A DNA stretch of 64,000 bases from Nitrosopumilus sp. (GCA_965223425.1 OZ245003.1:1600001-1664000); one strand, 5' to 3'; positions 1 through 63,992 are shown, counted from the first letter of the stretch. Notes: a model not told the origin generated them from the letters alone. Numbers and translations: made by a program.

Positions 1-5
1 TTTCC

Positions 6-365
6 GTGGTGCCGGGCAGAATAAGAAAGATGGTGCCAAAACAGATATCAAGGCGCGACGCAATACGCATATGCCGGAAGGTTCCGTCAGAATCACGGGC
101 AGAGGAAATAATACAAAAGATAGCAAAGTATGACGTGGCAAAGAAAAGGAGATACATCGATGCGCTGGAACATCTGGGCGGAAGTGCCGAACTCTCAGAA
201 ATCTCAAAACAGGCAAACTTGTTCAGGGCAAGGCAGAACATACAGGTAAAAATATCAAAAAGACAGGCAATGGGACTGGCAAAAATATCAAAGGAACAGG
301 AGATGGAGCCGTCAGAGATGGCACACAAGATAGTATCTGACTACCTCCTGCGAAGAGGATACTGA
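6..365 (+). CDS. Hypothetical protein, possibly 5'-truncated by the window edge; C-terminus resembles a ribbon-helix-helix DNA-binding domain
   Basis: The frame is open from the window edge. C-terminal IQVKISKRQAMGLAKISKEQEMEPSEMAHKIVSDYL fits a strand-helix-helix pattern. Confidence 0.45.
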   Translation: MVPGRIRKMVPKQISRRDAIRICRKVPSESRAEEIIQKIAKYDVAKKRRYIDALEHLGGSAELSEISKQANLFRARQNIQVKISKRQAMGLAKISKEQEMEPSEMAHKIVSDYLLRRGY

Positions 366-424: not shown

Positions 425-1291
425 ATGCCGTACAAATGCCTGTGTCCGAGGCCGCACCTTTATGAGGACCGTCACAACGGGGAGATCTGCTGCTCTGTGT
501 GCGGAACGGTACTTGACTGCGGCACTCCATGTGCCACGGTGCATGCTGAAAAAAACAACCTTGGAATGGATAACTACGGGATAGGAACAAAGCCCGTAGG
601 CGTGAGAACCGGCCGCATTATCCCGACTGAAACTATGGCAAGCAAGATTTGCCGCAAACGCACGCCAGAGGCCGGGCTGTTTAAGGCGATGATGCCAATA
701 CTTGAGAAAATTTCGGCCCCGAGGCACATGATGGACGGGTCGTTTATGTTTGGCAGAAAGGTGATCGCCAGCGGGATTGCCAAGAACCGGATGACAGTCG
801 CAGTAGCTGCCGCCTGCATACTTGCAGTCAGCAGGACTTACAGAAAGGTGATATCTGAGAAGGAGATGGCCGCAATTGCAAACATAGAGAAGAAGAATAT
901 CGGCAGGGTATACAGGATTATCCAGAAGGAGTTTGGCATTCCTGCTGCGGACCTGTCCCACAGAACGCGGGCGATAATCTCAAAGTCGTGTGCCATGCTG
1001 GGAATTTCAATGCACCTGCAACGCGAATCACTTGAGCTCTTTTCCGTGCTTAACCACCGCGAGATGACTCACGGAAGGAATCCGTACGTCGTGGCAGGTG
1101 CAGTCATATACATGGCTGCAAAAAAACACGGCAATGGGGTGACATTTAAAAAAATGTCAAGCGTGTGCGACGTGACGGCAAATGGGATTATAAACGCCTA
1201 CGAAAAGTTTGCGTGCTGTGACGTGACAAGCGGTGGGGCCGCCGGCGGCCGGAAGAAAATGAGGCCGGCAGGCACTGGTCGACATGAATAG
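425..1291 (+). CDS. tfb: Transcription initiation factor B (TFB/TFIIB) homologue
   Basis: N-terminal Zn ribbon (CLC...GEICCSVCGTVL) and two cyclin-fold repeats (VAAACILAVSR; GRNPYVVAGAVIYMAAK). Confidence 0.85.
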   Translation: MPYKCLCPRPHLYEDRHNGEICCSVCGTVLDCGTPCATVHAEKNNLGMDNYGIGTKPVGVRTGRIIPTETMASKICRKRTPEAGLFKAMMPILEKISAPRHMMDGSFMFGRKVIASGIAKNRMTVAVAAACILAVSRTYRKVISEKEMAAIANIEKKNIGRVYRIIQKEFGIPAADLSHRTRAIISKSCAMLGISMHLQRESLELFSVLNHREMTHGRNPYVVAGAVIYMAAKKHGNGVTFKKMSSVCDVTANGIINAYEKFACCDVTSGGAAGGRKKMRPAGTGRHE

Positions 1292-2060
1292 CAGGGAGGA
1301 AAGCTCGATGCTGGAATGGTATCCGAAAGTAAAAAGTTTGGACATACCCCAGCCGCAGACGGAAATGGTGGAAATTCCAAACGAGGACTTTTTGGAACTC
1401 GTTGGGAGCGGCAATTGCACTCTCAGGCAATACCAGAAGCGGTTCTCGGACATACTTGACTCACTTGCGCCGTTTCCTGTTTTTTTGCGCAGTGACTGCT
1501 CAAGCCAGAAGCACTCGTTCAAAAGAACATGCAGGCTCCCGGACAAAAAATCGCTGCTGGGCCATATCCTTGAGCTTGTGGACTTGAATTTTGCATGTGG
1601 GCTGACTGACAACGCGCTGGTGTTCCGCAAGTGGCTTGATCTGGACGCGGGCTTTGCGGCATTTGACGGGCTGCCAATAAACACGGAAGCAAGGGTATTT
1701 CTCAATCGCGGTAAAGTACAGTGCATTCATCCGTACTGGCCCGAGGAGGTAATAGAATCATGGATCTGGCATAGGAGCAAGTTGGAGGCTCAATTTGGGG
1801 GAAAACTGCCAAACGCAATAAATCCGAGATGGAGGGAAATCCTAAAGTCACAAAACGACATGGTGACAAAATCAAGGCCCATCCTTGAGAAATACTCAAG
1901 GAAGATAATAGACAGGATCGGCGACGGGTACTGGAGTGCCGACTTTGCGTTTTGTCGGGACGGGCTGTGGTATATGATAGACATGGCCAAAGGCGATGTG
2001 TCATACCACCATCCCGCATGCAGGTTTGACAGTCGCGGAACGGGGGTGTCTCATGGTTAG
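1284..2060 (+). CDS. ATP-grasp protein, R2K/CDC123-like clade
   Basis: Motifs VFLRSDCSSQKH, EARVFLNRGKVQCIHPYW and WSADFAF...WYMIDM. Start overlaps the tfb stop. Confidence 0.65.
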   Translation: MNSREESSMLEWYPKVKSLDIPQPQTEMVEIPNEDFLELVGSGNCTLRQYQKRFSDILDSLAPFPVFLRSDCSSQKHSFKRTCRLPDKKSLLGHILELVDLNFACGLTDNALVFRKWLDLDAGFAAFDGLPINTEARVFLNRGKVQCIHPYWPEEVIESWIWHRSKLEAQFGGKLPNAINPRWREILKSQNDMVTKSRPILEKYSRKIIDRIGDGYWSADFAFCRDGLWYMIDMAKGDVSYHHPACRFDSRGTGVSHG

Positions 2061-2477: not shown

Positions 2478-2645
2478 ATGGGTTATGTAGACTATTCCGT
2501 GTATAATTTCTGCAAAAAATGCGAACTGAAATTTTTGAAAACAAAGGGTGGAATATGTCCGGAGTGTCACAGGAGGGCGCGATTAGGCCCGTGCTTGCGC
2601 AGATACATTCCAAGAAATGGCGAGGTCCAAAAGAAAAGGTACTAG
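2478..2645 (+). CDS. Small Zn-ribbon protein (55 aa, below the ORF-track cutoff)
   Basis: Read by hand: MGYVDYSVYNFCKKCELKFLKTKGGICPECHRRARLGPCLRRYIPRNGEVQKKRY, with two CxxC motifs. Confidence 0.6.
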   Translation: MGYVDYSVYNFCKKCELKFLKTKGGICPECHRRARLGPCLRRYIPRNGEVQKKRY

Positions 2646-2679
2646 ACTTGCAAGACAATATTATCGGCGTGTAAAAAAT

Positions 2680-3876
2680 ATGGACAGGATAACAAAGTAC
2701 TCCAACCAAATAATGGGGGACTTTTCCTTTCTGACACGGAGTGATTCTGGTGAAATTCTTTACTATGAAAATGGAGTATACCGTCCAGGAGGCGGGGTGG
2801 TGATAGAGGTTGAGGCGTACAAACGCGTGAAGAACTGTAACATTAGAATCTGTCAGGAGATAACAAACAGGATTCGCCGCATCACCCAGACCGGCCCGAT
2901 GGCATTCAATTCCAATCACGACCTGATTAACGTGAAAAACGGACTGTTAAACGTAAAAACCGGACAGTTTCTGCCCCATTCCCCAGAGATTCCATTCACA
3001 AATCAGATGAGTGTCATTTATGACAGGACGGCAAAGGCAGAAAAGTTTGAGCAATTCATGAAACAGATACTTCCTGAGAAGGAGCAAACCACAGTATATG
3101 AGATGTTTGCAGCCCCACTCATCCATAATCTTGACTTGGGAAAAATAATGATTTGTGTCGGGGAGGACCCCGGAGGCAAGTCCACACTCTTTGGAGTGAT
3201 GGGGGAGATATATGGGGATGACTGTATCCATGTTCCGATAAATGAAATGATGGCGTTTCATTCCCTGCTGCTGCAAAAAAAACTCAACATCTCCGATGAC
3301 ATACACATCACAAAAAAGGATCTCAAACTACTCAGAAATCTAATCACAAAAAAAGACATGGGCGACACGTGCAAAATGGCGCGTCTGTTCTTCTCATGCA
3401 ACGTAATTGACTGGAAGGGCGGTGAGGAGGACATATTTCGCAGGATAGATTTTGACGTGTCATTCACATCAGGGACAGAAAACCCCAATCTCCTAGATGA
3501 GTTAACTGAAGAGAAAAGCGGCATACTCAACATACTGCTCTCCCATGCAAGGACCCTGCAAGAGAACGGCAGACTCACGCACAGCTATGGGAAAAAATCT
3601 GACAGGCAGATGGGGAATTCATCCAAAACAGATGTGGATGACGCGGTGGTTGACTTTGCGAATGCGTACATTATTCAGTCCGACGACGGCATGGAACCCA
3701 AGGACGGGATGTATGAAAAGTTTGCAATCTTTTGCAAACAGAACAATATACATCCCATGAGCCAATGGTATTTTTCAAAAAAACTGGCAAAACTTGGATA
3801 TAAGTGGAAGAAGAAAAGATTTGACGGACTGCCACAAAATGTCTGGTTGGATGTCAAATTGAAGAGCAGTCTCTAA
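2680..3876 (+). CDS. D5/P4-family SF3 helicase paralogue, divergent
   Basis: D5-N-like region (ILYYENGVY, LINVKNGLLN), Walker A-like GEDPGGKST, Walker B-like KLNISDD. ATG 2680 preferred over 2617 because it avoids overlap with the upstream Zn-ribbon gene. Confidence 0.75.
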   Translation: MDRITKYSNQIMGDFSFLTRSDSGEILYYENGVYRPGGGVVIEVEAYKRVKNCNIRICQEITNRIRRITQTGPMAFNSNHDLINVKNGLLNVKTGQFLPHSPEIPFTNQMSVIYDRTAKAEKFEQFMKQILPEKEQTTVYEMFAAPLIHNLDLGKIMICVGEDPGGKSTLFGVMGEIYGDDCIHVPINEMMAFHSLLLQKKLNISDDIHITKKDLKLLRNLITKKDMGDTCKMARLFFSCNVIDWKGGEEDIFRRIDFDVSFTSGTENPNLLDELTEEKSGILNILLSHARTLQENGRLTHSYGKKSDRQMGNSSKTDVDDAVVDFANAYIIQSDDGMEPKDGMYEKFAIFCKQNNIHPMSQWYFSKKLAKLGYKWKKKRFDGLPQNVWLDVKLKSSL

Positions 3877-3879
3877 TAG

Positions 3880-5955
3880 ATGGAAAAACCGGAAGTGGAG
3901 TCTGTGGATTCCCTAGTAAAGTTATTTTCAAAAAAGTTTGGATGCGATCCTGTCAGACTGTCGGCATTTGTCAAAGACCAGACTGCGGAAAATCCCGGAA
4001 AAGTGGTATGTGGGATGGGTGACCACAAGATCGAAAATGAGGAAACAATCCATACTTTTGATGGCGAATCATACAATCTGCAAAGCAATTTCTGCTCGAA
4101 CTTGGAGTGCTTTCTGAGTGGACTGGAGGAGGGAACAATTGATGTGCTTGATGGGAATGATCCAAATCTGAAAAAGCCTGCAAAGAAAAAGGCAAAAAAA
4201 CGCGTCAACACCCCAGATGGGGCCGATGAGGGGGACGAGATTACCCACATTGACTATGCCAGGGAGATTATGGGGGAACATTATTTCCTGACACTGAAGG
4301 ACACTGGTGAAATACTGTACTATGAGGACGGGAGGTACCGCTTTGGCGGAGAGGTCGTAATCACGGAAGAAGCATACAAGGTCGTGCCAGTCTGCAGAAT
4401 CAGCATACTGCGCGAGATCATCCAGTTTATCAAGGCAGACACGTTTGTGGAGCGGGAAATCTTTGATGCGGATCCCGACATCATTAACGTGAAAAACGGA
4501 CTGATCAACATACGCACAAACGAATTCATGGAGCACACCCCAAACATTCCCTCAAGGCAGCAGCTTGATGTGATTTATGACAAGAGTGCAAGGGCGGAAA
4601 AGTTTGAGCAATTCATGGAACAGGTGATGCCTGATTCACAGGAAAAGGCCACAATCTGTGAGATGTTTGCCGCCCCACTGCTACCGAAACTAAACCTCGA
4701 GCTGATAATGGTGTGTGCGGGAGAGGGCTCGAACGGAAAATCGACTTTGTTGAAAATTATGGACAATCTGTATGGCGATGATGCCTGCTCACACGTGTCA
4801 ATACACGATCTGATTGACAACCGGTTCTTCCGCGCGTATCTTGACGGGAAGAAACTCAACATCTGTGCCGATATCAGCAGTGACGAGATGAGTGATTTAA
4901 AAATCATAAAGAGTCTGGTCACGCGTGAGAAAATAACCGTAGAGAAGAAGAACCTGCCTCCGTTTGACATGATAAATACGGCAAGCATGTTCTTCTCGTG
5001 TAACAGACTGCCCGACGTAAAGGAGGATACCGATGCCGTGTTCCGTCGGTTTCGAATTCTGAATTTTGAACAGCAGTTTTCCGGCGATCAGATCAATCCA
5101 TATCTGTTTGATGAGTTGTTGGAGGAAAAAAGCGGCATACTCAACATACTGCTCTCCCATGCAAGGACCCTGCAAGAGAACGGCCGCCTGACATATGGCA
5201 TCAATATCCGCCAGACGCGGAAGGAGTGGAGGGAAGGCGTTGATACTGTTCAGAACTTTTTATCGGCATGTACGGAGGATGTTCAGGGGCAGAACGTTCC
5301 AAAGAACGAGCTGTATCAGAGATATACAAAATTCTGCAGGGGGCGTGGGGATTTGCCAAAGTCAAACAACGGATTCTCCCTGAAAATAACCAGCTTTGGC
5401 TACACGTGGAGGAAGATGTGGCATGAGGGGAAGGGTCAGAACGTGTGGATAGACCTGAAACTAAAGAAGGAGGGGAATAGTAGAGACAAAAATGGTCCAG
5501 GAGATGGGGATGAGATAAGGGCCGTCCCCCATTTGGAGACTGAGAATCCTGATGTAAAATCCAAAGATGGAGACTTTGTGGATGTGAAACCAAAAGATGC
5601 CACTGACTATGAGAATGTGACTTTGGGCGGAAAACCGGAATATGTGGAGGGAGACGAGCCCGGTGTTGGTGTCTTTGTGGATATTTTTACTAATTTGGCC
5701 AAATCCGGCGATGTGGATAGAAAGGAACTGGCCGAAGAGATGGTGAAGAGTGAAAAGTGGAATGAAATGGAGGCAGAAAAGTTGATAGACAATATAATCA
5801 AATCAGGGAGAATCAAGTCAGTCTCAGAAGGAAGGGGTGGGAAATTTTTCTGTGAAACATGCAATGCAGGTCCGTTCACCTCCGGTTCCATGGCCTTTGG
5901 AGGCAAAAAAATTGAGGAATACCATAAAAACCACAAAACAAGGGAGATAGAATGA
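3880..5955 (+). CDS. Phage/plasmid D5/P4-family SF3 replicative helicase with C-terminal extension
   Basis: Walker A GEGSNGKST, Walker B KLNICAD, motif C FFSCNRLP, AVFRRF, winged-helix-like tail and a C-terminal CxxC...H..H. No primase catalytic domain recognised. Confidence 0.85.
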   Translation: MEKPEVESVDSLVKLFSKKFGCDPVRLSAFVKDQTAENPGKVVCGMGDHKIENEETIHTFDGESYNLQSNFCSNLECFLSGLEEGTIDVLDGNDPNLKKPAKKKAKKRVNTPDGADEGDEITHIDYAREIMGEHYFLTLKDTGEILYYEDGRYRFGGEVVITEEAYKVVPVCRISILREIIQFIKADTFVEREIFDADPDIINVKNGLINIRTNEFMEHTPNIPSRQQLDVIYDKSARAEKFEQFMEQVMPDSQEKATICEMFAAPLLPKLNLELIMVCAGEGSNGKSTLLKIMDNLYGDDACSHVSIHDLIDNRFFRAYLDGKKLNICADISSDEMSDLKIIKSLVTREKITVEKKNLPPFDMINTASMFFSCNRLPDVKEDTDAVFRRFRILNFEQQFSGDQINPYLFDELLEEKSGILNILLSHARTLQENGRLTYGINIRQTRKEWREGVDTVQNFLSACTEDVQGQNVPKNELYQRYTKFCRGRGDLPKSNNGFSLKITSFGYTWRKMWHEGKGQNVWIDLKLKKEGNSRDKNGPGDGDEIRAVPHLETENPDVKSKDGDFVDVKPKDATDYENVTLGGKPEYVEGDEPGVGVFVDIFTNLAKSGDVDRKELAEEMVKSEKWNEMEAEKLIDNIIKSGRIKSVSEGRGGKFFCETCNAGPFTSGSMAFGGKKIEEYHKNHKTREIE

Positions 5956-5959
5956 GTTA

Positions 5960-6578
5960 TGGAAGCGATCGGAAAAAAAATTCATTCCAGTTGTGATTTT
6001 GATATTTTGGAAAAATTGGTTTTGAAAAGTTGTAAAAAATTGAATATCATATATGAAAACGGTAAAAATAGAGTGGTAATAGTTATGATGATCGCTAACC
6101 TTCCAACTTCTTCCAGACTACCTTCATTTCCACTCTCTAGATTTTCGCCTTTTTTGGTAAAAAATGCGATCTTTTTTAGATTTTCTGATCGCAAAATTTT
6201 GTTTTTTGGTGAAAATGACGAAATTCGTTAAAATCCTAAAATTTGAACGGTTAATAATGGCAAATTCCAGTCATTTTTGGAAATTTTAGCGAATTCCGAA
6301 GTTCTATAGGCAGACATCACAAATTAGACAAAAACAAAAAATTTTGATCGCAAAAATTTCGTGCCTAGAATTTGGTGAAAATCGGCCAAAAAACCAATTC
6401 CTTCCAGTCATTCCAGTCATTCCAGTCTTATATTTAGCCCATATAATTGATAAAAATGCGATCCATTTGCCTAAAAAGTGCAGTTATACGGGCTAAATAG
6501 AAAAAGACTGGAATGGCTGGAATGTGGAACATAATTTACAGACCCAGTTCCAACTGGTGCATATCCATCTAATTGGTC
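5960..6578. promoter_or_regulatory. AT-rich origin-like region with a long inverted repeat and recurrent GCGATC/GATCGC motifs
   Basis: Markedly AT-rich. Imperfect inverted repeat 6402-6449 / 6481-6529. Six GCGATC/GATCGC hexamers. Lies between the helicase and polymerase genes. Confidence 0.55.
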
Positions 6579-7078
6579 ATGGAACGTCATTTTTGTAAAA
6601 ACGGACTCCAAATTGACAGATAACTGGAATGAATGGAACGTCATTTTTGTAAAAACGGACTCCAAATTGACAGATAACTGGAATGAATGGAACGTCATTT
6701 TTGTAAAAACGGACTCCAAATTGACAGATAACTGGAATGAATGGAACGTCATTTTTGTAAAAACGGACTCCAAATTGACAGATAACTGGAATGAATGGAA
6801 CGTCATTTTTGTAAAAACGGACTCCAAATTGACAGATAACTGGAATGAATGGAACGTCATTTTTGTAAAAACGGACTCCAAATTGACAGATAACTGGAAT
6901 GAATGGAACGTCATTTTTGTAAAAACGGACTCCAAATTGACAGATAACTGGAATGAATGGAACGTCATTTTTGTAAAAACGGACTCCAAATTGACAGATA
7001 ACTGGAATGAATGGAACGTCATTTTTGTAAAAACGGACTCCAAATTGACAGATAACTGGAATGAATGGAACGTCATTT
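6579..7078 (+). repeat. Perfect tandem repeat, 54-bp unit x9 plus a 14-bp partial copy (iteron-like)
   Basis: Unit ATGGAACGTCATTTTTGTAAAAACGGACTCCAAATTGACAGATAACTGGAATGA starts at 6579, 6633, ... 7011, with a partial copy at 7065. No spacers. Confidence 0.97.
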
Positions 7079-7147
7079 GATGGTACACAAACTCTCGTTT
7101 TTCAATTTTGATGTAACTTTGTCCAAACTTTTGGTCAAAGTATCTAT

Positions 7148-9586
7148 TTGACTGACAAGAATCTACTCTTTCTCTCCTCAATAATTCAGGATGGAAATAT
7201 GACTTTGAAATTCTATGATGAATCAGAGAGAAAAATAGTGACAGTAAATGCAGGAAAGTACGATCATTATTCTCTGGTCAGAGACGACACAGGAGACATA
7301 ACAAAGCACGACCTAATCACAGACAGGCCGGCCAGGTTTAGGATTTCAACTGACTTGTCGCAGGAAAAAACAAATGAGAAGGAGGTCAGTGACATATCCT
7401 CTTACATATATGACAATAATCTCAACCCCGGCAGGTTCTATACAATTTCCAACGGAAAGATACTTCTCAAAGAAATGGAGATATCAACAGAAATGGAGGA
7501 TGCACTGACTGAAATTATAGACCAGGGCATTGGTTTTGGAATGCCAGATAAGCACAGCTACCACAAACAGATGATAGAGACGGCAAGAATTCTATCTGAA
7601 CCAATCCCCGACATTTCCCGCCTTGCATTTGACATAGAGATCGAGCCGGCCGGAGACGGTGGAATTGATGTAAATCACGCAAGCAAAAAGATAACGGCAG
7701 TCTCCTTTTCATCCAATGACGGTCTTGCCGCATGTCTTGTGCTCGGAGATGAAAACGATACCAGAAAAATATCACTAAAATCCACCGATTTGACAGTACG
7801 GATATTCGATTCGGAATCGGCGATGCTAAAGGAGTCATTTACAATTATGAAGGGATTTCCATGCTGGCTGACTTTTTTTGGCAGACGCTTTGACCTGCCA
7901 TACATGTATAATCGCGCAAATCAGCTTGGGCTGTCCGTCCACAGGGACATGATGACTATGCGCCTAAAGGGCGGGCAGACGATGGCAGCCCCGATAAAAT
8001 CAATACATTTGGACTTGCATGACATCTTTTCCAATCCAGCACTGTACACGTATGCATTTTCTGAGAAATACGGATCATACTCACTTGATGACGTTGCAAC
8101 TGCGATGCTGGGGGAGGGCAAGACCTCGTCAGGCTCCGAGGTGGGAACGATGTCAATGATGGAACTGGCAAAGTACTGCTATCAGGACTCCAAACTCACC
8201 ATGAACCTGACAAAATATGCAAACAATGCCGTGATGAACATGATGGTGATACTGTCGAGAATCTCCGTGATGGGAATTGACGATGTCTCCCAAACCAGGG
8301 TCTCAACCTGGATCTGCTCGATGCTCTGGAACAATCACAGGAAGACAAACGCGATAATACCGCGAAGGGATGAGCTTGACTCCAAGACCACATCACACCT
8401 GAGAATGAGCGAGTCCTCAATAATTAGCGGAAAAAAGTATCGCGGCGGAATGGTTCTGGAGCCAAAGATGGGAGTCCACTGGGGGATGACTGTTCTTGAC
8501 TTTGCCTCGATGTATCCGCACCTGATGCAGATTCACAACCTCTCCTATGAGACTGTGATGTGTCCGCACGAGGAGTGCAAGTCAAACTCCATACCATCCA
8601 CCGAATATCACACGTGCACAAAAAGAAACGGCATGCTTGCAGAGATGATCGGAACGCTGCGTGAGCTGCGCGTGCACGTCTTCAAGCGATTCTCACAGAA
8701 CAGAGAGGTCCCAAAGGAGCAGAGGGAACTCTACAAGATAATTGCCGGGGCAATCAAGGTCTTCATGAACGCAAGCTACGGCGTCATGGGGTCTGACCTG
8801 TTCTCAATATATTACCTCCCAGTAGCAGAGTCAGTCACCGCATCGGGCAGAAAAATAATTGCAGATACGATGGAGCGGTGCAAAGACATGGGGGTGGAAG
8901 TGCTGTATGGCGACACTGACTCGCTGTTTGCTGCTGGAATCACAAAATCCCAACGTGAGAAGATAATATCTGAAACTGCAAAAATTCACGGCACCGAGCT
9001 TGAGGTGGACAAGGAATACAGGTTTGCAATACTTACCGAGCTGAAAAAGAACTATCTGGGAATAATGGAGGACGGATCAAGTGAAATCAAGGGACTGACA
9101 GGCAAAAAGTCACACACTCCAAAATTTATAAGAAAATCATTCCGCGACGTTGTGAAAATTCTCTCCGACGTAAAGTCCGAGGAGGAGATGGGGCCGGCAA
9201 TCAGGCAGATCATCTCGCACATACAGCGGGACATAGAGAGAATCAACACCCATGACATATCACTGGAGGATCTCACATTTAGGATGAAGATAACAAAGCC
9301 GATCTCAGAGTACACAAAGAGCCAGCCGCAGCATGTCACGGCAGCAAAGATACTTGGGGAGAAGTGCGGTGTGGAGGTGCAGCAGGGAAGCGTAATCCAG
9401 TACATCAAGACTGCAACTGCGCCGTATGTCACTCCCATGGAGCTTGCAAACATCGACTCCATCTCCACAAAAAAATACACAGAGTCACTCTCATCTGTCA
9501 TGGGGCAGATACTTCCCGCGCTTGGCACCTCGATGGAGGTGATAATTACCGGCTCCAAGCAGGACTCCATTGAGAGCTTTACATAA
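7148..9586 (+). CDS. polB: Family B DNA polymerase with 3'-5' exonuclease domain
   Basis: Exonuclease motifs FDIE, FDLPY and YCYQD; polymerase motifs DFASMYP, KVFMNASYG, YGDTDS and KKNY. Start is TTG 7148 or ATG 7199. Confidence 0.95.
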   Translation: MTDKNLLFLSSIIQDGNMTLKFYDESERKIVTVNAGKYDHYSLVRDDTGDITKHDLITDRPARFRISTDLSQEKTNEKEVSDISSYIYDNNLNPGRFYTISNGKILLKEMEISTEMEDALTEIIDQGIGFGMPDKHSYHKQMIETARILSEPIPDISRLAFDIEIEPAGDGGIDVNHASKKITAVSFSSNDGLAACLVLGDENDTRKISLKSTDLTVRIFDSESAMLKESFTIMKGFPCWLTFFGRRFDLPYMYNRANQLGLSVHRDMMTMRLKGGQTMAAPIKSIHLDLHDIFSNPALYTYAFSEKYGSYSLDDVATAMLGEGKTSSGSEVGTMSMMELAKYCYQDSKLTMNLTKYANNAVMNMMVILSRISVMGIDDVSQTRVSTWICSMLWNNHRKTNAIIPRRDELDSKTTSHLRMSESSIISGKKYRGGMVLEPKMGVHWGMTVLDFASMYPHLMQIHNLSYETVMCPHEECKSNSIPSTEYHTCTKRNGMLAEMIGTLRELRVHVFKRFSQNREVPKEQRELYKIIAGAIKVFMNASYGVMGSDLFSIYYLPVAESVTASGRKIIADTMERCKDMGVEVLYGDTDSLFAAGITKSQREKIISETAKIHGTELEVDKEYRFAILTELKKNYLGIMEDGSSEIKGLTGKKSHTPKFIRKSFRDVVKILSDVKSEEEMGPAIRQIISHIQRDIERINTHDISLEDLTFRMKITKPISEYTKSQPQHVTAAKILGEKCGVEVQQGSVIQYIKTATAPYVTPMELANIDSISTKKYTESLSSVMGQILPALGTSMEVIITGSKQDSIESFT

Positions 9587-11167
9587 ATGTCGATGATTGA
9601 ATCGTTCCCCCCGCAATATACTATGCGAAGCGCGCAGAAAAGCATAATCGGAAGGATAGAGGAGGCAACAAAGTCCGGATATCCAAACATCGTGGTGTGC
9701 GCTCCTGTGGGTGTCGGCAAGAGCCACATTGCAGTCACATTTGCCAGGCACTTTGGGGGCTCCTCCATAATTACGCACCAAAAGGTACTGCAGGACCAGT
9801 ATGCCGATAACTTTCGGTTTTTGGCATCGGCAAAGGGCAGGCAGAACTATCCCTGCATAATGATCTGCAATGACGTTGATCCTCACGGGAAGAACCGGAC
9901 GGGGCCTGAGACCACCTGTGCAAACGGAAAATGCTCGTATAGATACGGCGGAAAGACACGCTGGTGCGAATACAAGCCGAAGATTGAGGACTTTGAGACA
10001 ATGCCGGCAGGCGCAGTAGTCGGGCCGTCAGGGGCGTGCCACTACTACAACGCAAAATACATTGCCATGCTCTCAAAGCACTCGCTGTACAACTATGCGG
10101 CATACTATCACTTTAAGCGGTTTGGAAATACGAGGATGGACAGCGAATGCGTCGTAGCCGATGAGGCACACGAGATAGAGGAGACGCTGGTTAACCATGC
10201 CTCCATCACCATTCCAAGGGACGACTTTCGGATGTGCGGGCTTGACATGCCAAAGGGGAACATAGACGACATCCTGGACGGACTGGGGGAGATTGTCAAG
10301 ACATGCTACGGGGAAATCCGCTCTGCAGGGATTGATGCAGACACGCAGAGGTGGAAGAGGCTGGAGGAAAAGTGCTCTACCATATCATTTGAGGGACGAA
10401 AAGACCCGGAGAACATAGTTTTTGAGATAAAAAACGGCGAGATTGCGCTAAAGCCGGTAAGCGTGAAGGGAATGGCCAGAAGGATGTTTGATGGGAAGCG
10501 AAACCTGTTTCTCTCTGGGACAATACACGGAGAGATGTTCTGCGGAATGATGGGGATAGACTCCCGAGATTGCCGGTACATCGAGGTGAAGGACCATCCA
10601 TTTGAGCTAAAAAACAGGACCATGCATTTTTTAAACTCGGCAAGGCTGACAGAAAAATCAAGGGAGACAGACTTTGATGCGGCATATACTTCCGTAGTCA
10701 GAATTCTAGCGAAACATCATGATGAAAAGGGAATCATACTTACCACGTCAAAAAAGCAGTGCATGCAGCTGTCGGGAAAAATAAAAAACCGCGAGGTCAT
10801 CATGGCCTTTGGACCAAAGAGGGACGAGGCAGTAAAGAGGCACGTGGAGTCACCCAGACCGTCCGTGCTTCTTGCTCCAGGGATGTGGAGTGGGGCGGAT
10901 CTGTCAGGGGAAAGGTCGAGGTTTCAGATAATTTTGAAGGTTCCATATCTGTCCATGGCAGACATCCGAATAAGTCACAAGACACACCTCTGGTACAAAT
11001 ATCAGGCATTGGTCAAGTTTCTGCAGGGGTGCGGGAGGTCTGTCAGACATGAGACGGACTATTCTGTTACATATGTCATCGATTCGGGGATAGCTGATCT
11101 TGTCAGGAGCATGCGAAAGTACATTCCTGCGGCGTATCTTGATGCGATAGACATGGCGATGCAATGA
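9587..11167 (+). CDS. XPD/Rad3/DinG-family SF2 DNA helicase
   Basis: Q motif (RSAQ), APVGVGKS, KGRQNYPC with a Cys-rich Fe-S-like region, DEAH, LSGT and QGCGRSVRH. Confidence 0.88.
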   Translation: MSMIESFPPQYTMRSAQKSIIGRIEEATKSGYPNIVVCAPVGVGKSHIAVTFARHFGGSSIITHQKVLQDQYADNFRFLASAKGRQNYPCIMICNDVDPHGKNRTGPETTCANGKCSYRYGGKTRWCEYKPKIEDFETMPAGAVVGPSGACHYYNAKYIAMLSKHSLYNYAAYYHFKRFGNTRMDSECVVADEAHEIEETLVNHASITIPRDDFRMCGLDMPKGNIDDILDGLGEIVKTCYGEIRSAGIDADTQRWKRLEEKCSTISFEGRKDPENIVFEIKNGEIALKPVSVKGMARRMFDGKRNLFLSGTIHGEMFCGMMGIDSRDCRYIEVKDHPFELKNRTMHFLNSARLTEKSRETDFDAAYTSVVRILAKHHDEKGIILTTSKKQCMQLSGKIKNREVIMAFGPKRDEAVKRHVESPRPSVLLAPGMWSGADLSGERSRFQIILKVPYLSMADIRISHKTHLWYKYQALVKFLQGCGRSVRHETDYSVTYVIDSGIADLVRSMRKYIPAAYLDAIDMAMQ

Positions 11168-12132
11168 CGGGTCACGCGATAGAAAAGTATGTGTTCGAGG
11201 GCGGCATGGAGGCACTAAAGGAACTGAAATTTCCAATCGGGGATGTCCTGGAGGGAAGAACAGACTGCGACAAATCAGTACTAAGGGAGGCAATGGCGGG
11301 GATAATATCGGCGGCAACAGGAAAAAGGATTGATGCCGGCGGCACTCCGGCACTAGTCCATGGCAGGCCGTATCCAAAAAATGCCGTGATGTTTTCCCTC
11401 TCTGCAATAATGCTAAAGGCAGTCGACAGGGAAACTGTCACAAAAAAGTACGCGCTGGCCCACTCCATTAGGGCCGAAAAGAGGATAGAGTCTGAGATTT
11501 TAAGAGGCGGGTTTGGTGGAATTGTGCGCAAACTGGTTCTGGGAGTAAGGATAGATGAGCCGTGCATGATGCCGGTATCCGAGTATCTGAGGCGTGCCGT
11601 ACACATCGGCGAGTCAAAGTGGAGTCTTGTAAACAGAAGGGTGGAGGAGGGGATGGTATTGCTTGCAGTTCATGAGATGGTCCGGCTCCTGCGGTGGGAC
11701 ATCACCAGCACTATAGAGGCGGCAATCAATGAAATTAACGTTACGGAGAGAACGGCAAAGCTGGTAGAAGATTATACAAGAAAGATAATGGAGGCCGTTC
11801 CAAAACAGATATCCACAAATGTCGGCGAGTCTGGATGGCCGCCATGCATACGGCACGCAATAAAGTATCTGTACGGCGGCGGGAACCTGAATCATACTGG
11901 GAGATTCATGCTTGCATCATATTTAGTAAAGGCAGGTGTCAGCAAGGAGGTGATATGCGGGCACTTTGTTCCGGCACCGGACTATAACGAGAGGGTGACA
12001 AGCCAGCAGGTCGAGCACATAAGGCGCGGAAAATACATCCCGCCGTCATGTGCAAAGCTGGAGACTTTGGGACTCTGCCACAGGAACCGGAAATGTGGAA
12101 GCATACGCAATCCGATACAGTACCGCCAATGA
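11164..12132 (+). CDS. priL: Archaeal primase large (regulatory) subunit
   Basis: WSLVNR, WPPCI, NLNHTGRFMLASYL and YIPPSCAKL...LC...C...NPIQY, the PriL Fe-S C-terminal domain pattern. Confidence 0.88.
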   Translation: MTGHAIEKYVFEGGMEALKELKFPIGDVLEGRTDCDKSVLREAMAGIISAATGKRIDAGGTPALVHGRPYPKNAVMFSLSAIMLKAVDRETVTKKYALAHSIRAEKRIESEILRGGFGGIVRKLVLGVRIDEPCMMPVSEYLRRAVHIGESKWSLVNRRVEEGMVLLAVHEMVRLLRWDITSTIEAAINEINVTERTAKLVEDYTRKIMEAVPKQISTNVGESGWPPCIRHAIKYLYGGGNLNHTGRFMLASYLVKAGVSKEVICGHFVPAPDYNERVTSQQVEHIRRGKYIPPSCAKLETLGLCHRNRKCGSIRNPIQYRQ

Positions 12133-13286
12133 ACCGCATACTCCACGGCGACTGTACGGAGAGGCTGGCGGAAATAGAGTCAGAAACCGTGGATCTCCTT
12201 GCAACTGATCCGCCGTACGGATACGGATTCCTGGGAAACTCCTGGGACTCTGATGTGCCGACATCCCAGGCATGGAGTGAGTGCCTCAGATGTCTCAAGC
12301 CCGGGGCCTTCGCTTTTGTTTTCTCTTCACCGAGGGCAGACCTCATGTCAAGGATGATAACGAGACTTGGCGATGCGGGGTTTGTCACCGGGTTTACGCC
12401 GATATTTCGGGCCTTTGCGGGGGGATTCTCAAAGGGGAGAAACGTTGCAGATGTGCTGGGGCCGGACCACGAGCTGTATCAACGGCTGAGGGGCTCATAC
12501 ACCGGGTATCACCCAAAGGCTGCCGTGGACGTGGTGATTGTCGCAATGAAGCCGCTCTCAGAGTCCACGTTTACTGCGCAGTCCTGCAGGAACGGCAAGG
12601 GGGTCACGTGGCTTGATGATGTCAGAATTCCGGCAGATCCGGCAGATGGTGACGGTAATAGCAGTGGCGGAAGGTTTCCTGCAAACCTGGTGGTCTCTGA
12701 TGACTCGCTCAATGACGGCAGGGAGCACAAGAGCGGGGTGGTTTTCCCACACCACAATATCACAGGAAAGAAATACCTGTACGACAAGTACGGACACAGG
12801 ACGGCATCGGACACTGTCTGCTATGGCGACTCTGGATCTTTTTCCAGGTTCTTTGACATTGACAAATGGGAGGCGCAGTTCATTGTTGACAGCCGTCCAA
12901 CGCGGGCCGAGATGGATGCCGGAGTGACTCCGCAGAGCGGGCCTCTTGCGGAACTCTGTTCGAATGAAAAACCGGACGGCAGTGGAGTGAGAAACAACAC
13001 ACACCACACCGTAAAGTCGATTGTGTTCATGTCTTATTTGGTAATGATGGGGACAAGGCGCGGCGATACCGTCCTTGATCCGTTTGCCGGATCTGGTACT
13101 ACGGCAATTGCCGCAACGCTCCTTGGAAGGGACTCCATATCGATTGAAATTGAGCACAAGAACTACATGATGATCAGGGAGAGGGCGGAATACTGGAAGA
13201 ACAGGCAGTACGGGAACATCTCGAAGATAAAGAAACAGGATGAGGCAGAATCGCAGACAGACATTACGGAATGGGTAGAGGACTGA
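12129..13286 (+). CDS. N6-adenine/N4-cytosine DNA methyltransferase (beta class, phage-like)
   Basis: TDPPY catalytic motif precedes DPFAGSGTT; also GRFPAN and HHTVK. ATG 12129 overlaps the priL stop. Confidence 0.88.
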   Translation: MNRILHGDCTERLAEIESETVDLLATDPPYGYGFLGNSWDSDVPTSQAWSECLRCLKPGAFAFVFSSPRADLMSRMITRLGDAGFVTGFTPIFRAFAGGFSKGRNVADVLGPDHELYQRLRGSYTGYHPKAAVDVVIVAMKPLSESTFTAQSCRNGKGVTWLDDVRIPADPADGDGNSSGGRFPANLVVSDDSLNDGREHKSGVVFPHHNITGKKYLYDKYGHRTASDTVCYGDSGSFSRFFDIDKWEAQFIVDSRPTRAEMDAGVTPQSGPLAELCSNEKPDGSGVRNNTHHTVKSIVFMSYLVMMGTRRGDTVLDPFAGSGTTAIAATLLGRDSISIEIEHKNYMMIRERAEYWKNRQYGNISKIKKQDEAESQTDITEWVED

Positions 13287-27686: not shown

Positions 27687-27715
27687 GACAGGATTCGCAT
27701 TCAGACGGCCCAATA

Positions 27716-33186: not shown

Positions 33187-33188
33187 AT

Positions 33189-35565: not shown

Positions 35566-35568
35566 GAT

Positions 35569-56833: not shown

Positions 56834-56870
56834 AAAATAGTGAGATGATAGATTCCAGTTGTGGCAATGT

Positions 56871-61707: not shown

Positions 61708-62364
61708 ATGTATCTGGAACTGGCAATGCTTGCGCCGTTTGTCTTCTACTCCTGCCTTGACGTAAAAACCAGGAAGATAGGGCTCCACTGGTTTGTAATC
61801 CCATTCCTTGCAATTCTCATCTTCAAAATATTGACATCTGACATCACCATTACTGATGTAATGTTCTCAGCCATGCAGGCAGTGTTTGTTCTTGCGGCAT
61901 ATTTCACAAGGCTGTTCGGACCGGCAGACATGGCAGGAATGCTCCTGCTTTCCTTTGCAGTCCCGTTTGTAGGACCGTTCCCTGCGGCAGTCTCCGTGCT
62001 GGCACTCACCATAATTATCCAAAGTTTCGGAATAATCTCATCAAATATAATGTACAACCTGCAGGACATGTACCAGGACAGGACCCTATTCTACGACGTT
62101 CCACACCTCCAAAAGGCAAGGAGGATAAGGACCGTATACTGGTCTCTGATGGCCCGGCGCAGAAGGGAGAACGACAGATATGTGCTTTCGGCCCAAAGAA
62201 ATCAAAAGAACGGGGAGCTGCGCCTCGCACTCTCAAGAAAGAACACGGAGCTGTGTCACGATGACGACAAATACGTGTATTCGGCCCATCCGCAGTTTGT
62301 GTACATTACAGTGTCATATGCGCTCATCTTGTTTGTTGCGATGCAGTTCGGAGTCCTGATCTGA
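61708..62364 (+). CDS. A24-family prepilin/prearchaellin peptidase
   Basis: Multi-TM protein with SCLDVKTRKI and FGPAD (the two catalytic Asp), plus C-terminal PQFVYI. Confidence 0.78.
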   Translation: MYLELAMLAPFVFYSCLDVKTRKIGLHWFVIPFLAILIFKILTSDITITDVMFSAMQAVFVLAAYFTRLFGPADMAGMLLLSFAVPFVGPFPAAVSVLALTIIIQSFGIISSNIMYNLQDMYQDRTLFYDVPHLQKARRIRTVYWSLMARRRRENDRYVLSAQRNQKNGELRLALSRKNTELCHDDDKYVYSAHPQFVYITVSYALILFVAMQFGVLI

Positions 62365-63992
62365 TGTTTGGCAAGAAAAATCCAAAGAAGAAGGACGCAG
62401 GCGATGCCAAGGGAACAAAGAAAAAATTCTCCATAAGATCCATATTCCCCAAAAAGAAAAAGGACGCAAAGGATGCTGCTGACACGCAAAAAAAGAAGCA
62501 CGATGAAAAGAAAACAGGATCCGAGCCGGCAAAAAAGCTGTCACTCTCATCAGTCATGATAGACGACGGATACCTGCAGCAGTACAAGGTGGGCGAGGCG
62601 ACAGTCACAATATCCAAGGACCTAAAGTACTGCGTATTTGAGCCGCAGTTTATCGGCCAGGGAAAGTCCGCATACGAGCAGATAATGGCATACAAGAGAT
62701 TCACATCCTCATATGCCGACGAGGGCGGCAAGGCAAACAGCCTGGACTCGCTAATGAAATCGGCGGAGACAGCAGCTGCCGACCTCGGATTCACAAGGGA
62801 GTACATTGAGAACTATCGCACGTTCCAATACTACATCAGACGCAACGTCTTTGGGTTTGATCTGCTTGATGTCCTGATGCATGATCCAAAGCTGGAGGAC
62901 ATCACATGTTCCGACTATCGTGGGACAGTCGGCGTGATACACCAGGACTATCTGGACCGCCACGTCCTGCGGACCACGATCCAGTTTGACTCCAAGGAGC
63001 ACATGGAGTCATGGATGGAGAGGCAGGCAAACAGGGCGCAAAAGCACATCTCGACTGCGACCCCCACAGTAGACATGCAGATTGCAAACAAGTACCGCAT
63101 GTCACTGATAGCAAACGACATCATCTCGCCGAACTCTCCGGCAATCTCAGTCAGGATAAAGTCATCAACGCCGATAACCATAACGCATCTGCTAAACCAG
63201 AGGGCCATATCCCCGGAGACAGTCGCAGTAATCTGGGCGCTGCTGGATGTGAGGGGGACTGGGATGATAGTGGGCGGAACAGGCTCCGGCAAGACAAGCA
63301 CGATTGGCTCACTGCTTCCGCTTGTAAGAAAAAACGCAAAGATACTCACAATCGAGGACACCGCCGAGCTCCTGGTGCCGCATGAGGACTGGCTGCCACT
63401 GATAGTTGATGCCCCGATATCTTCAGAGAGATACTTTGTCAAATTCGAGGAGGTGCTCAATGCCGCACTGCGGCAGCGCCCCTACATGATCTCAGTGGGA
63501 GAGGTGCGCGGCAAGTCCACAAAGATGCTCTTTGATGCAATATCCACCGGACACTCCTCGCTCTCCTCGTTCCACGCGTATTCGGCGGCAGGTGCGGTGC
63601 AGCGAATCCAGGGGGAGATGGGTGTTCCTGCCGGGTCATTTACGGACTTGGGATTCATTCTGTCCATGGCAGAAGTCGTGACAAAAACCGGGTCCCTGGA
63701 ACGCCGCTGCGTCTCCTTTGACGAGGTCGGTTCGGACGGCAAAACAGTCTCGCTGATCAACCTTGGAAGGTATGACGCAGTAACTGACTCGTTTGCAGAC
63801 AATTCCATAGACTATATCATTAAACACAGCAGGCGGCTGAGGATGGCGTCCGCACGCGACGCGTCAACTGACATAAGGTCTGATCTGGAAATGAGAATCG
63901 ACCTTCTGTCCGAATGCCAGAAACAAAAGGCAGAGACGCCGCAGAAAGTCATGGAGATACTCTCACGGTACTATGAAAAAAAACGTCAGTAA
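62364..63992 (+). CDS. Type II/IV secretion system ATPase (VirB11/TadA/FlaI family)
   Basis: DPKLEDI, GGTGSGKTS, TIEDTAEL, LRQRP, GEVRG and STGH...SFHA. Confidence 0.92.
   Translation: MFGKKNPKKKDAGDAKGTKKKFSIRSIFPKKKKDAKDAADTQKKKHDEKKTGSEPAKKLSLSSVMIDDGYLQQYKVGEATVTISKDLKYCVFEPQFIGQGKSAYEQIMAYKRFTSSYADEGGKANSLDSLMKSAETAAADLGFTREYIENYRTFQYYIRRNVFGFDLLDVLMHDPKLEDITCSDYRGTVGVIHQDYLDRHVLRTTIQFDSKEHMESWMERQANRAQKHISTATPTVDMQIANKYRMSLIANDIISPNSPAISVRIKSSTPITITHLLNQRAISPETVAVIWALLDVRGTGMIVGGTGSGKTSTIGSLLPLVRKNAKILTIEDTAELLVPHEDWLPLIVDAPISSERYFVKFEEVLNAALRQRPYMISVGEVRGKSTKMLFDAISTGHSSLSSFHAYSAAGAVQRIQGEMGVPAGSFTDLGFILSMAEVVTKTGSLERRCVSFDEVGSDGKTVSLINLGRYDAVTDSFADNSIDYIIKHSRRLRMASARDASTDIRSDLEMRIDLLSECQKQKAETPQKVMEILSRYYEKKRQ

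What the first reader, a model, noticed from the sequence alone, without database searches (positions are those of the whole stretch)
2680..12132. Self-contained replication cassette (2x D5 helicase - origin-like repeats - PolB - XPD helicase - PriL) on a putative conjugative thaumarchaeal element
Seen: co-oriented, closely coupled replication genes around a repeat-rich non-coding kilobase, in a window that also has TFBs, ParB-like genes, T4SS/pilus genes and no recognisable capsid or ribosomal genes. Known: D5/P4 helicases are typical of phages and plasmids, whereas PriL and XPD are usually chromosomal. Inference: this is a large extrachromosomal or integrative element with a hybrid replisome. 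No PriS is seen, so the element PriL may recruit host PriS to a primase-less D5 helicase. Few such elements are described for ammonia-oxidising archaea.
Basis: partly seen in the sequence, partly recalled or inferred. Interest (0 to 1): 0.75.

Follow-up and report, generated by a model that had tools for sequence, protein, structure and literature searches.

The report
Replication module of an archaeal conjugative island
The gene cluster is the DNA-copying module of a 162-kb mobile island inserted in the chromosome of a Nitrosopumilaceae archaeon, and it combines a virus-type helicase and its repeat-built origin with polymerase, helicase and primase-helper genes of cellular type.

Summary
Window 2617-12132 holds two D5-type SF3 helicases, a 1.2-kb repeat-rich gap, PolB, an XPD-family helicase and PriL, all on the + strand.

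The window lies inside a 162,292-bp insertion in a 2.5-Mb chromosome. The insertion is bounded by an 11-bp direct repeat found nowhere else on that strand. A tyrosine integrase gene starts 50 bp inside the left end. Relatives of the same genus have an empty site there. The island also carries VirB4- and VirD4-like ATPases and a ParB-TFB pair, so it looks like a thaumarchaeal integrative-conjugative element.

PolB, XPD and PriL are extra copies; the host has its own. The only PriS gene found is the host's.

The module (long D5, repeats, PolB, XPD, PriL) recurs in four other Nitrosopumilaceae genomes, in the same gene order in three of them. The three cellular-type genes give largely congruent trees. 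All five D5/PolB gaps share GTTCCA-type hexamers. Here these form two opposed sets around an AT-rich spacer, plus a perfect 54-bp x 9.3 array, which matches the origins of SaPI self-loading helicases.

A complex model supports, but does not show, that the element's PriL binds host PriS.

"Self-contained" overstates the cassette. Verdict: a new variant of a known kind.

The parts
3..365 (+). 3' part of a ParB-like gene (whole ORF G000:C1:1599550-1600365), directly upstream of TFB
   Evidence: ParB_N 2.8e-12. The ParB/TFIIB pairing is the hallmark noted for thaumarchaeal ICEs (PMC6563490, section 12).
425..1291 (+). TFIIB-family transcription factor (TFB) of the element
   Evidence: PF00382 1.1e-19. 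It is 22-24% identical to two host TFBs elsewhere in C1.
1284..2060 (+). R2K-clade ATP-grasp-like protein, an accessory gene travelling with the module
   Evidence: R2K_3 is weak in Pfam (0.0099). Atlas feature hits score 0.97-0.98 to clusters where 24-39% of members carry R2K_3. A 48-49% identical homologue sits right after PriL in G148.
2617..3876 (+). D5a: short D5-type SF3 helicase paralogue, 45% identical to D5b. It lacks the N-terminal Cys/His domain and has a 9-residue gap in the helicase core.
   Evidence: Pfam, tblastn, alignment A1. G250 also has a short paralogue, with a degenerate Walker A.
3880..5955 (+). D5b: candidate initiator-helicase. Domains: N-terminal Cys/His domain (about 1-90), D5_N, SF3 ATPase, winged helix, linker, C-terminal CxxC...H..H. 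No AEP primase domain.
   Evidence: Pfam, alignment A1. AF2 model pLDDT 69.6, with a confident core at 120-530. Foldseek top hit is the SaPI5 primase-helicase 7ola, E 6.1e-21, followed by ASFV C962R, MPXV E5 and vaccinia D5.
5956..7198 (.). Origin-like non-coding region (34% GC over 5956-7147)
6401..6427 (+). Left iteron set: three TTCCAG sites spaced 9 bp apart
6428..6503 (.). 76-bp AT-rich spacer (30% GC) with an internal 22-nt inverted repeat; candidate unwinding element
   Evidence: (pair I3).
6508..6530 (-). Right iteron set: three inverted sites (CTGGAA, CTGGAA, GTGGAA)
6579..7078 (-). 54-bp x 9.3 perfect tandem array. Each unit carries two inverted sites 9 bp apart, all in one orientation.
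   Evidence: No other copy in the genome.
7148..9586 (+). Family-B DNA polymerase of cellular type (TTG at 7148; first ATG at 7199)
   Evidence: Pfam. Motifs A and C and Exo I-III are found in all five element PolBs, and motif B by my pattern in three of five, including this one; the tail is PIP-like (QDSIESFT). The element clade is sister to the Nitrosopumilaceae host PolB clade.
9587..11167 (+). XPD/Rad3-family Fe-S helicase
   Evidence: Pfam. Walker A, DEAH and five Cys conserved in at least 12 of 13 sequences. Element clade 99/99.
11164..12132 (+). PriL, the primase large (regulatory) subunit. Its start overlaps the XPD stop by 4 bp.
   Evidence: Pfam. Four invariant Fe-S Cys: C228, C296, C305, C311. 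Element clade 100/99. Complex model with host PriS.
12048..13286 (+). N6/N4 DNA methyltransferase directly downstream, overlapping the PriL 3' end
   Evidence: N6_N4_Mtase 3.9e-20.
62364..63992 (+). T2SSE/FlaI-type secretion ATPase, the first recognisable gene of the transfer region that continues beyond the window
   Evidence: T2SSE 7.8e-31. VirB4-like at C1:1676051-1677910 and VirD4/TraG-like at C1:1677907-1680627.

Best explanation
The cassette is the replication module of a 162.3-kb integrative-conjugative element (ICE) inserted site-specifically in the chromosome of a Nitrosopumilaceae archaeon.

Shown:
- The insertion, its 11-bp att repeats and its integrase.
- The conjugation-type ATPases.
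- The gene identities and intact catalytic motifs.
- That PolB, XPD and PriL are extra copies.
- That the module recurs in four other genomes (same gene order in three) and largely co-evolved.
- That GTTCCA-type hexamers are the one sequence feature shared by all five D5/PolB gaps.

Inferred mechanism:
- D5b is an SF3 helicase without a primase domain. It acts as a self-loading initiator-helicase.
- Its winged helix reads the hexamer iterons immediately downstream of its gene. Two opposed sets of three sites flank a 76-bp AT-rich spacer where melting starts.
- The 54-bp x 9 array adds about 19 more sites. It may act in copy control by titration or handcuffing, or as a loading platform.
- A captured cellular-type proofreading PolB with a PIP-like tail does the synthesis, using host PCNA or the element's divergent PCNA-like protein.
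- The XPD-family helicase and PriL, whose genes overlap by 4 bp (read here as translational coupling), serve priming and lagging-strand work.
- The element has no catalytic primase subunit, so its PriL pairs with host PriS and redirects it to the element's fork.
- The short paralogue D5a is an accessory or regulatory subunit.
For: Integration:
- The two flank genes lie 2.4-6.6 kb apart in 14 of the 17 same-genus genomes that have both on one contig (25 searched). They are 165.9 kb apart here.
- Homology to three empty sites breaks at C1:1579026-31 and resumes at 1741306-10.
- TAAACGATTAA sits at both junctions. These are its only two forward-strand copies in C1.
- The integrase ORF is C1:1579078-1580760.
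- The element is 162,292 bp at 45.3% GC; the rest of C1 is 40.9%.
- Contigs of two runs bridge attL with no differences; these may be the source sample.

ICE character:
- VirB4-like and VirD4-like genes, a T2SSE ATPase and an adjacent ParB-TFB pair.
- All ICEs described in PMC6563490 (section 12) encode TFIIB, in most next to a ParB-like gene.

Extra copies:
- The host has PolB at C1:1161514, XPD at 1261612 and PriL at 207457.
- Each of the 5 genomes with the module has exactly 2 PolB and 2 PriL matches.

Conserved module:
- Long D5 - gap - PolB - XPD - PriL lies in that order in G036, G148 and G110. In G250 the order is PolB - repeats - short D5 - long D5 - XPD - PriL. Amino-acid identity is 33-48%.
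- The element clades score 100/100 (PolB), 99/99 (XPD) and 100/99 (PriL). PolB and XPD give the same internal topology; in the PriL tree the places of G148 and G000 are unresolved.
- The XPD/PriL 4-bp overlap occurs in 4 of 5 (coordinates).

Origin:
- GTTCCA, CTGGAA and ATGGAA are the only 6-mers present at least 3 times in all 5 gaps. 0 of 200 shuffles gave such a 6-mer.
- The densest TTCCA window is the D5/PolB gap in all 5 loci.
- The opposed-sets architecture is seen here and in G036 and G110.
- The best structural match of D5b is the SaPI5 PriRep5 helicase.
- SaPI Reps bind penta- or hexanucleotide iterons just downstream of rep, on both sides of an AT-rich centre in opposite orientation (PMC9371898, introduction passages).

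PriL and host PriS:
- The only PF01896 match is the host gene next to host PriL. There is no PF09250 match.
- The four Fe-S Cys and the stretch 137-164 are conserved.
- Complex model of host PriS with element PriL 1-220: score 0.91, best of 3 controls 0.02. That mark was reached by 58 of 80 solved complexes and 2 of 110 mismatched pairs. These counts hold only roughly, because my own alignments were used. The runs agree in at least 98% of contacts, and the partner's pLDDT is at least 85.
Against: - Nothing was measured: no binding, no origin firing, no excision, no transfer.
- PriS-PriL complexes have been solved, so the pass may reflect likeness to known structures. It does not show that this copy binds.
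- Only 78 of the 201 ORFs of at least 70 aa in the element were scanned in Pfam. A cryptic primase among the rest is excluded only at the level of PF01896 and PF09250.
- The PolB tail in this element (QDSIESFT) departs from the PIP consensus kept by the other four. My motif B pattern matched only 3 of the 5 element PolBs.
- The iteron signal in G148 is weak: 3 GTTCCA in 2.7 kb.
- The role of XPD is pure inference.
- The trees have long element branches and flagged composition bias. The PriL and XPD donors are unresolved.
- The element carries a host IS copy, so it could be immobile now.
- The perfect 54-bp array could serve partition rather than replication.
Confidence: 0.65

Rival explanations
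1. The repeats, above all the 54-bp x 9 array, are a centromere-like partition site or a transcriptional operator bound by one of the element's ParB-like or HTH proteins. They are not a replication origin. Replication would then start elsewhere or rely on host initiators.
For: At least five ParB-like genes lie on the element. All sites in the array point one way. From my own knowledge, arrays of direct repeats next to operons are typical plasmid centromeres. No Orc1/Cdc6 search was run.
Against: The shared hexamer stays between the long D5 gene and PolB in all five elements, although gene order differs in G250 and the ParB genes lie elsewhere. Two opposed sets around an AT-rich spacer, directly after the helicase gene, is the SaPI Rep origin layout. 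D5b's nearest solved structure is such a Rep.
Confidence: 0.15
2. The island is a decayed, domesticated remnant. The cassette genes persist as spare repair or replication paralogues for the host, and the element no longer replicates or moves.
For: A host IS with at least 28 near-identical chromosomal copies sits inside the element. Contig-level data show only the integrated form and about equal depth on both sides of attL. The G000 PolB tail departs from the PIP consensus.
Against: All five cassette ORFs are open with catalytic motifs intact. Both att repeats are perfect and the integrase ORF is open. The 54-bp array is 100% identical across its copies. The same block is kept in five genomes at 33-48% identity, which argues for long selection as a unit.
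Confidence: 0.15
3. Element PriL does not use host PriS. It works with an unrecognised element-encoded primase, or has a role without a primase, for example as an Fe-S partner of XPD.
For: XPD and PriL overlap by 4 bp in 4 of 5 elements. All element PriLs share a 5-residue deletion and a divergent N-terminal domain. 123 of the 201 element ORFs were not profiled. The D5b N-terminus gave weak leads to primase-type zinc ribbons, at scores of 0.79-0.80, below the tool's level for more than a lead.
Against: Whole-genome six-frame searches with PF01896 and PF09250 find no AEP in the element. The PriS-contact stretch is the best-conserved part of the PriL N-terminal domain. The complex model passes its controls.
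Confidence: 0.25
4. The island is a provirus rather than a conjugative element.
For: D5-type helicases and R2K ATP-grasp proteins are common in viruses.
Against: No capsid, portal or terminase family appeared among the 78 element ORFs scanned in Pfam. None appeared among 10 large unknowns in PHROGs. VirB4- and VirD4-like genes are present.
Confidence: 0.04

Closest known systems
Thaumarchaeal integrative-conjugative elements (Krupovic et al. 2019, PMC6563490; section 12 and passages read)
   Same: Integrated with flanking direct repeats and a tyrosine integrase. VirB4- and VirD4-like ATPases, FlaI/PilT-type ATPase, TFIIB next to a ParB-like gene, and defence and modification cargo.
   Different: None of the ten ICEs in that paper has this replication module. 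Only NitEve-E6 has a PolB, and that one is casposon-like, with cellular polymerases not recovered. Here PolB is sister to the host family's replicative PolB. It comes with a D5 helicase, XPD and PriL. The element is 162 kb against a reported median of 64 kb.
SaPI Pri-Rep-ori replicons (PMC9371898; abstract and passages read)
   Same: An SF3-type self-loading helicase with a winged helix. Hexanucleotide iterons lie immediately downstream of its gene, in two opposed sets around an AT-rich centre. It is the nearest solved structure to D5b (7ola).
   Different: SaPIs are bacterial, about 15 kb (recalled), and carry their own primase, fused in SaPI5. They use host polymerase. Here the primase domain is missing, a PriL is supplied instead, the element brings its own PolB, and an extra 54-bp array is present.
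D5/P4-type primase-helicases (vaccinia D5, MPXV E5, ASFV C962R)
   Same: The D5_N, SF3 ATPase and winged-helix core.
   Different: The N-terminal AEP primase domain is replaced by a Cys/His domain of about 90 aa. A C-terminal CxxC...H..H module is added.
PolpTN2 of Thermococcus plasmid pTN2 (PMC3973330, abstract in the search listing; PMC5862659, passages)
   Same: A mobile element carrying a PriL-related Fe-S module for priming.
   Different: In PolpTN2 the PriL-like part is fused to its own PriS-like catalytic domain. Here a full, stand-alone cellular-type PriL has no PriS on the element. PMC5862659 states that PriL is nearly exclusively associated with primases for chromosomal replication.
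ThaMY3-E2 cryptic integrated element (PolB + MCM) and other archaeal elements with captured host replication genes (PMC6563490; PMC3914693, passages)
   Same: Recruitment of host replisome genes (PolB, MCM, PCNA, Orc1) by integrated elements.
   Different: The helicase here is MGE-type (D5), not MCM. The captured set (PolB + XPD + PriL) is not among those the passages I read describe.

Membership tests
Thaumarchaeal ICE | Site-specific integration: flanking direct repeats, an integrase, and an empty site in relatives | tested here: met
Thaumarchaeal ICE | VirB4/TrbE- and VirD4/TraG-like ATPases | tested here: met
   TraG P-loop 4.8e-15, DUF87 and AAA_10 on one ORF; TraG-D_C and T4SS-DNA_transf on the next ORF. 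PF03135 itself gave no match.
Thaumarchaeal ICE | TFIIB homologue adjacent to a ParB-like gene | tested here: met
   The order here is ParB then TFB; the paper describes TFIIB upstream of ParB.
Thaumarchaeal ICE | Actual excision and cell-to-cell transfer | not testable with these tools
   Only contigs were available.
D5-type primase-helicase | D5_N + SF3 ATPase + C-terminal winged helix | tested here: met
D5-type primase-helicase | N-terminal AEP primase domain | tested here: not met
   No AEP family in Pfam on D5a or D5b. The 90-aa Cys/His N-terminus of D5b looks too short to me for an AEP domain. No PF01896 or PF09250 match in the element.
SaPI-type self-loading initiator helicase with iteron origin | Short iterons just downstream of the helicase gene, at least two on each side of an AT-rich centre, in opposite orientation | tested here: met
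   also G036 and G110. Criterion taken from PMC9371898.
SaPI-type self-loading initiator helicase with iteron origin | Specific binding and melting of the origin by the helicase | not testable with these tools
   Needs EMSA or footprinting.
Cellular-type family-B DNA polymerase | Pol motifs A, B, C and Exo I-III, and placement with cellular PolBs | tested here: met
   My motif B pattern matched 3 of the 5 element PolBs, including this one. The motif patterns were recalled from memory.
XPD/Rad3 helicase | Walker A, DEAH box, Fe-S cysteines, Helicase_C_2 | tested here: met
PriL (primase large subunit) | PF04104 domain with four Fe-S cysteines | tested here: met
PriL (primase large subunit) | Cognate PriS encoded alongside | tested here: not met
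   The only PriS is the host gene at C1:208788-209309. The model supports binding to it but does not show it.
Provirus | Capsid, portal or terminase genes | tested here: inconclusive
   None in 78 ORFs (Pfam) or 10 ORFs (PHROGs). 123 of 201 ORFs were not scanned.
Casposon | Cas1 integrase and terminal inverted repeats | not tested
   No Cas1 search was run. No Cas1 family appeared among the scanned ORFs. The integrase is a tyrosine recombinase.

The most novel reading that the evidence does not exclude
This family of Nitrosopumilaceae ICEs runs a chimeric primosome. The element supplies only the regulatory Fe-S subunit PriL, made together with an XPD-family Fe-S helicase. With it the element captures the host's catalytic PriS and couples it to an SF3 initiator-helicase that has lost its own primase domain. 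As far as my searches show, no mobile element has been described that encodes PriL without PriS in order to use the host primase. It would also be an archaeal counterpart of the SaPI iteron origin.
Probability: 0.4. Interest if true: 0.75.

Novelty: new variant of a known kind. Interest (0 to 1): 0.6.

Why it matters
Mobile elements of ammonia-oxidising archaea are few and known only from sequence. No origin of replication has been pinned down for any of them in what I read.

This element offers several things:
- a precisely bounded 162-kb element;
- a short, testable origin candidate (a six-site core plus an array) with a conserved hexamer;
- a compact candidate replicon (D5b plus about 1.2 kb) that could seed genetic tools for Nitrosopumilaceae, which to my knowledge lack them.

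It also shows an element capturing three cellular-type replisome genes (PolB demonstrably from the host family) and keeping them as one co-evolving block. It raises a concrete question: can a stand-alone element PriL redirect the host's catalytic primase subunit?

Tried and rejected
- **att repeats from GC-defined borders.** The search found nothing, because the true right end lies 5 kb beyond the GC drop. Synteny with relatives solved it.
- **PF03135 VirB4.** No match, but other T4SS ATPase families hit.
- **Apparent 1230-aa PolB-XPD fusion in G148.** This was an open wrong frame in 67% GC DNA. PolB and XPD are separate and abutting.
- **Contig C2 (123 kb).** It shares no DNA with the island.
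- **The 46-kb insert at the same site in G105.** It is unrelated: 1 small protein hit.
- **Wider scans with the D5 alignment.** Genome contigs gave 10 loci, 4 of them with the full cassette. Viral contigs gave 4 loci and metagenome contigs 21 loci, with no PolB, XPD or PriL beside any of them. These scans use one or two peptide patterns, so they can miss relatives.
- **PriL against 5.8 billion proteins.** Only two entries (44% and 39% identity) ranked above the host-type PriLs.
- **Single-sequence AF2 of the PCNA-like ORF.** It failed (pLDDT 32.9), so no fold search was run on it.
- **Atlas search of D5b 1-100.** It gave only sub-threshold leads.
- **Read laying.** All runs are contigs. No loose end at attL appeared among those listed (37 were not shown). 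Depth is similar on both sides (1021 against 872). This says nothing firm about excision or copy number.
- **GC skew.** It rises steadily with the one-strand gene bias and shows no switch at the repeats.
- **Literature.** Searches found no description of this module. Supplements were closed.
- **Not run:** CRISPR spacer and Hi-C host links.

Full report
**What is there.** The window is G000:C1:1600001-1664000 of a 2.64-Mb genome in two contigs.
- two tandem D5-type SF3 helicases, D5a at 2617-3876 and D5b at 3880-5955;
- PolB at 7148-9586;
- an XPD-family helicase at 9587-11167;
- PriL at 11164-12132;
- a DNA methyltransferase after PriL.

All are on the + strand and tightly packed. Upstream lie a ParB-like gene, a TFIIB homologue and an R2K ATP-grasp-like gene.

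**The island.**
- The left-flank DEAD helicase and the right-flank 675-aa gene are 165.9 kb apart here.
- I searched 25 other genomes of the same genus. In 17 of them both genes lie on one contig. They are 2.4-6.6 kb apart in 14 of these and 17-46 kb apart in the other 3.
- Alignment of three empty sites shows homology ending at C1:1579026-31 and resuming at 1741306-10.
- The 11-mer TAAACGATTAA sits at both junctions. These are its only two forward-strand copies in the chromosome.
- A 560-aa tyrosine recombinase ORF starts 50 bp inside the left repeat.
- The insertion is 162,292 bp at 45.3% GC, against 40.9% for the rest of C1. 147 of its 201 ORFs of at least 70 aa are on one strand.
- It carries VirB4-like and VirD4/TraG-like ATPases, a FlaI-type ATPase, a Dnd cluster, and several restriction-modification systems.
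- No capsid or terminase family appeared among the 78 ORFs scanned in Pfam, or among 10 large unknowns in PHROGs.
- Record titles of sister genomes and of PriL hits name Nitrosopumilaceae. I did not check amoA, so "ammonia oxidiser" rests on family membership.

The gene set matches the thaumarchaeal ICEs of Krupovic et al. 2019. That paper reports TFIIB in all of them, in most next to a ParB-like gene (PMC6563490, section 12).

**Extra copies, not the host's own.**
- The chromosome has its own PolB (41% identical), XPD (34%) and PriL (34%) at distant loci.
- The only PriS gene sits next to the host PriL.
- No Prim-Pol family match exists anywhere in the genome.

**A conserved block.**
- Searching 300 other genomes of the class with the element PriL showed four genomes with a second, better-matching PriL.
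- In G036, G148 and G110 that PriL lies in the order long D5 - gap - PolB - XPD - PriL. In G250 the order is PolB - repeats - short D5 - long D5 - XPD - PriL. Identity is 33-48%.
- A pattern scan of one genome per species of GTDB found no further full cassette. Viral and metagenome scans found none either.
- All four genomes have VirB4 homologues. In G250 one is 51% identical and about 100 kb from the cassette.
- In maximum-likelihood trees the five element copies form one clade for PolB (100/100), XPD (99/99) and PriL (100/99). PolB and XPD give the same internal order; the PriL tree agrees on G250 outermost and on the G036+G110 pair but leaves G148 and G000 unresolved.
- The PolB clade is sister to the Nitrosopumilaceae host clade (100/99), nested inside the class. 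This points to a single old capture from the host lineage.
- The donors of PriL and XPD are unresolved. Branches are long and composition bias is flagged.

**Intact enzymes.**
- Element PolBs keep motifs A and C and Exo I-III in all five. My pattern for motif B matched three of the five, including this one. They also keep a PIP-like tail, although the tail in this element is atypical.
- XPD keeps Walker A, DEAH and the conserved cysteines.
- PriL keeps all four Fe-S cysteines, and the element copies share a 5-residue deletion.
- XPD and PriL overlap by 4 bp in 4 of 5 elements.

**The origin candidate.**
- The gap holds three TTCCAG sites 9 bp apart (6401-6427), a 76-bp spacer at 30% GC, and three inverted sites (6508-6530).
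- A perfect 54-bp x 9.3 array follows. Each unit carries two more inverted sites.
- This is the only such cluster in the genome.
- An unbiased 6-mer count shows GTTCCA, CTGGAA and ATGGAA are the only words present at least 3 times in all five D5/PolB gaps. 0 of 200 shuffles gave such a word.
- G036 and G110 show the same opposed sets. G250 has 39/84-bp arrays with the motif. G148 is weak.
- D5b has no primase domain. It has a Cys/His N-terminus, D5_N, the SF3 core, a winged helix and a C-terminal CxxC...H..H.
- Its model is nearest to the SaPI5 PriRep5 helicase.
- SaPI Reps are self-loading initiators. Their winged helix reads hexamer iterons placed just after the rep gene, on both sides of an AT-rich centre (PMC9371898). 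The layout here matches.

**Priming.**
- Kazlauskas et al. 2018 state that PriL is nearly exclusively tied to chromosomal primases (PMC5862659).
- Raymann et al. 2014 list PriS and PriL as essentially single-copy (PMC3914693).
- A stand-alone PriL on an element is therefore unusual.
- A complex model of host PriS with element PriL 1-220 scored 0.91, against 0.02 for the best of 3 controls. That mark was reached by 58 of 80 solved complexes and 2 of 110 mismatched pairs. The counts hold only roughly, because my own alignments were used. The runs agree in at least 98% of contacts, and the partner's pLDDT is at least 85.
- The interface (PriL 137-164) is the best-conserved part of its N-terminal domain.
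- PriS-PriL structures are solved, so this shows likeness, not binding.

**Not self-contained.**
- No catalytic primase was found on the element. Clamp loader, ligase, Fen1 and SSB were not searched for.
- A divergent PCNA-like ORF lies at C1:1708423-1709292. PCNA_N scores below the Pfam cut-off. All 25 PDB matches are sliding clamps, the best at 1e-4 over the full length. It matches host PCNAs at 22-26% identity.

**Verdict.** The kind of element is known, but this replication module is not described in the papers I searched or read. Mechanistic steps beyond gene identity, synteny and motif conservation are inferred.

Noticed in passing
window 56869-58243: A 1.37-kb IS with a DDE_Tnp_1 transposase has at least 28 copies elsewhere in C1 at 92-99.9% identity. 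The genome, the largest of its genus among those sampled, is IS-rich, and the IS has entered the element.
   Followed up: partly
window 30746-36744: A complete DndB-C-D-E plus cysteine desulfurase (DndA-like) cluster for DNA phosphorothioation is carried by the element. It is followed by an asparaginase, two ParB-like genes and a metallo-beta-lactamase-fold gene that might form its restriction part.
   Followed up: no
window 29480-29551 (-); G000:C1:1696868-1696955 and 1698002-1698091: The element carries tRNA genes: tRNA-Leu(aag) and two long tRNA-Ile(gat) calls. The long calls may have introns or be pseudo-tRNAs.
   Followed up: no
G000:C1:1708423-1709292 (L006:9423-10292): A divergent PCNA-like ORF lies on the element. 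It is an orphan in the 5.8-billion-protein search. No closer orthologue was found in the four sister genomes; only host PCNAs matched.
   Followed up: partly
window 28505-28932: Coding tandem repeats of 63/129/192 bp (90-92% matches) lie inside the 520-aa ORF 27683-29245, which gave a NACHT-helical-domain Pfam hit.
   Followed up: no
window 22232-25245 (+) and 42051-45069 (-): Two paralogous gene pairs with MmeI/Eco57I-type methylase hits lie in opposite orientation about 17 kb apart, flanking the Dnd region.
   Followed up: no
G000:C2 (123,097 bp): The second contig has 46.9% GC and four tyrosine-recombinase matches. It shares no DNA with the island and may be another mobile element or plasmid.
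   Followed up: partly
site between the flank genes in G076, G129, G105: The same intergenic site holds 17-46 kb of other DNA in three relatives. The G105 insert is unrelated to this element, so the site looks like an integration hotspot.
   Followed up: partly
G000:C1:89367-91023: A second host XPD-like gene appears split into two adjacent frames.
   Followed up: no
L043 (contig labelled Candidatus Poribacteria MAG): A 39% identical homologue of D5b lies on a 51-kb contig binned with a bacterial sponge symbiont. No PolB, XPD or PriL lies within the 17-kb stretch held, which reaches 5.7 kb past D5 to the contig end. The contig may be a mis-binned archaeal element.
   Followed up: no
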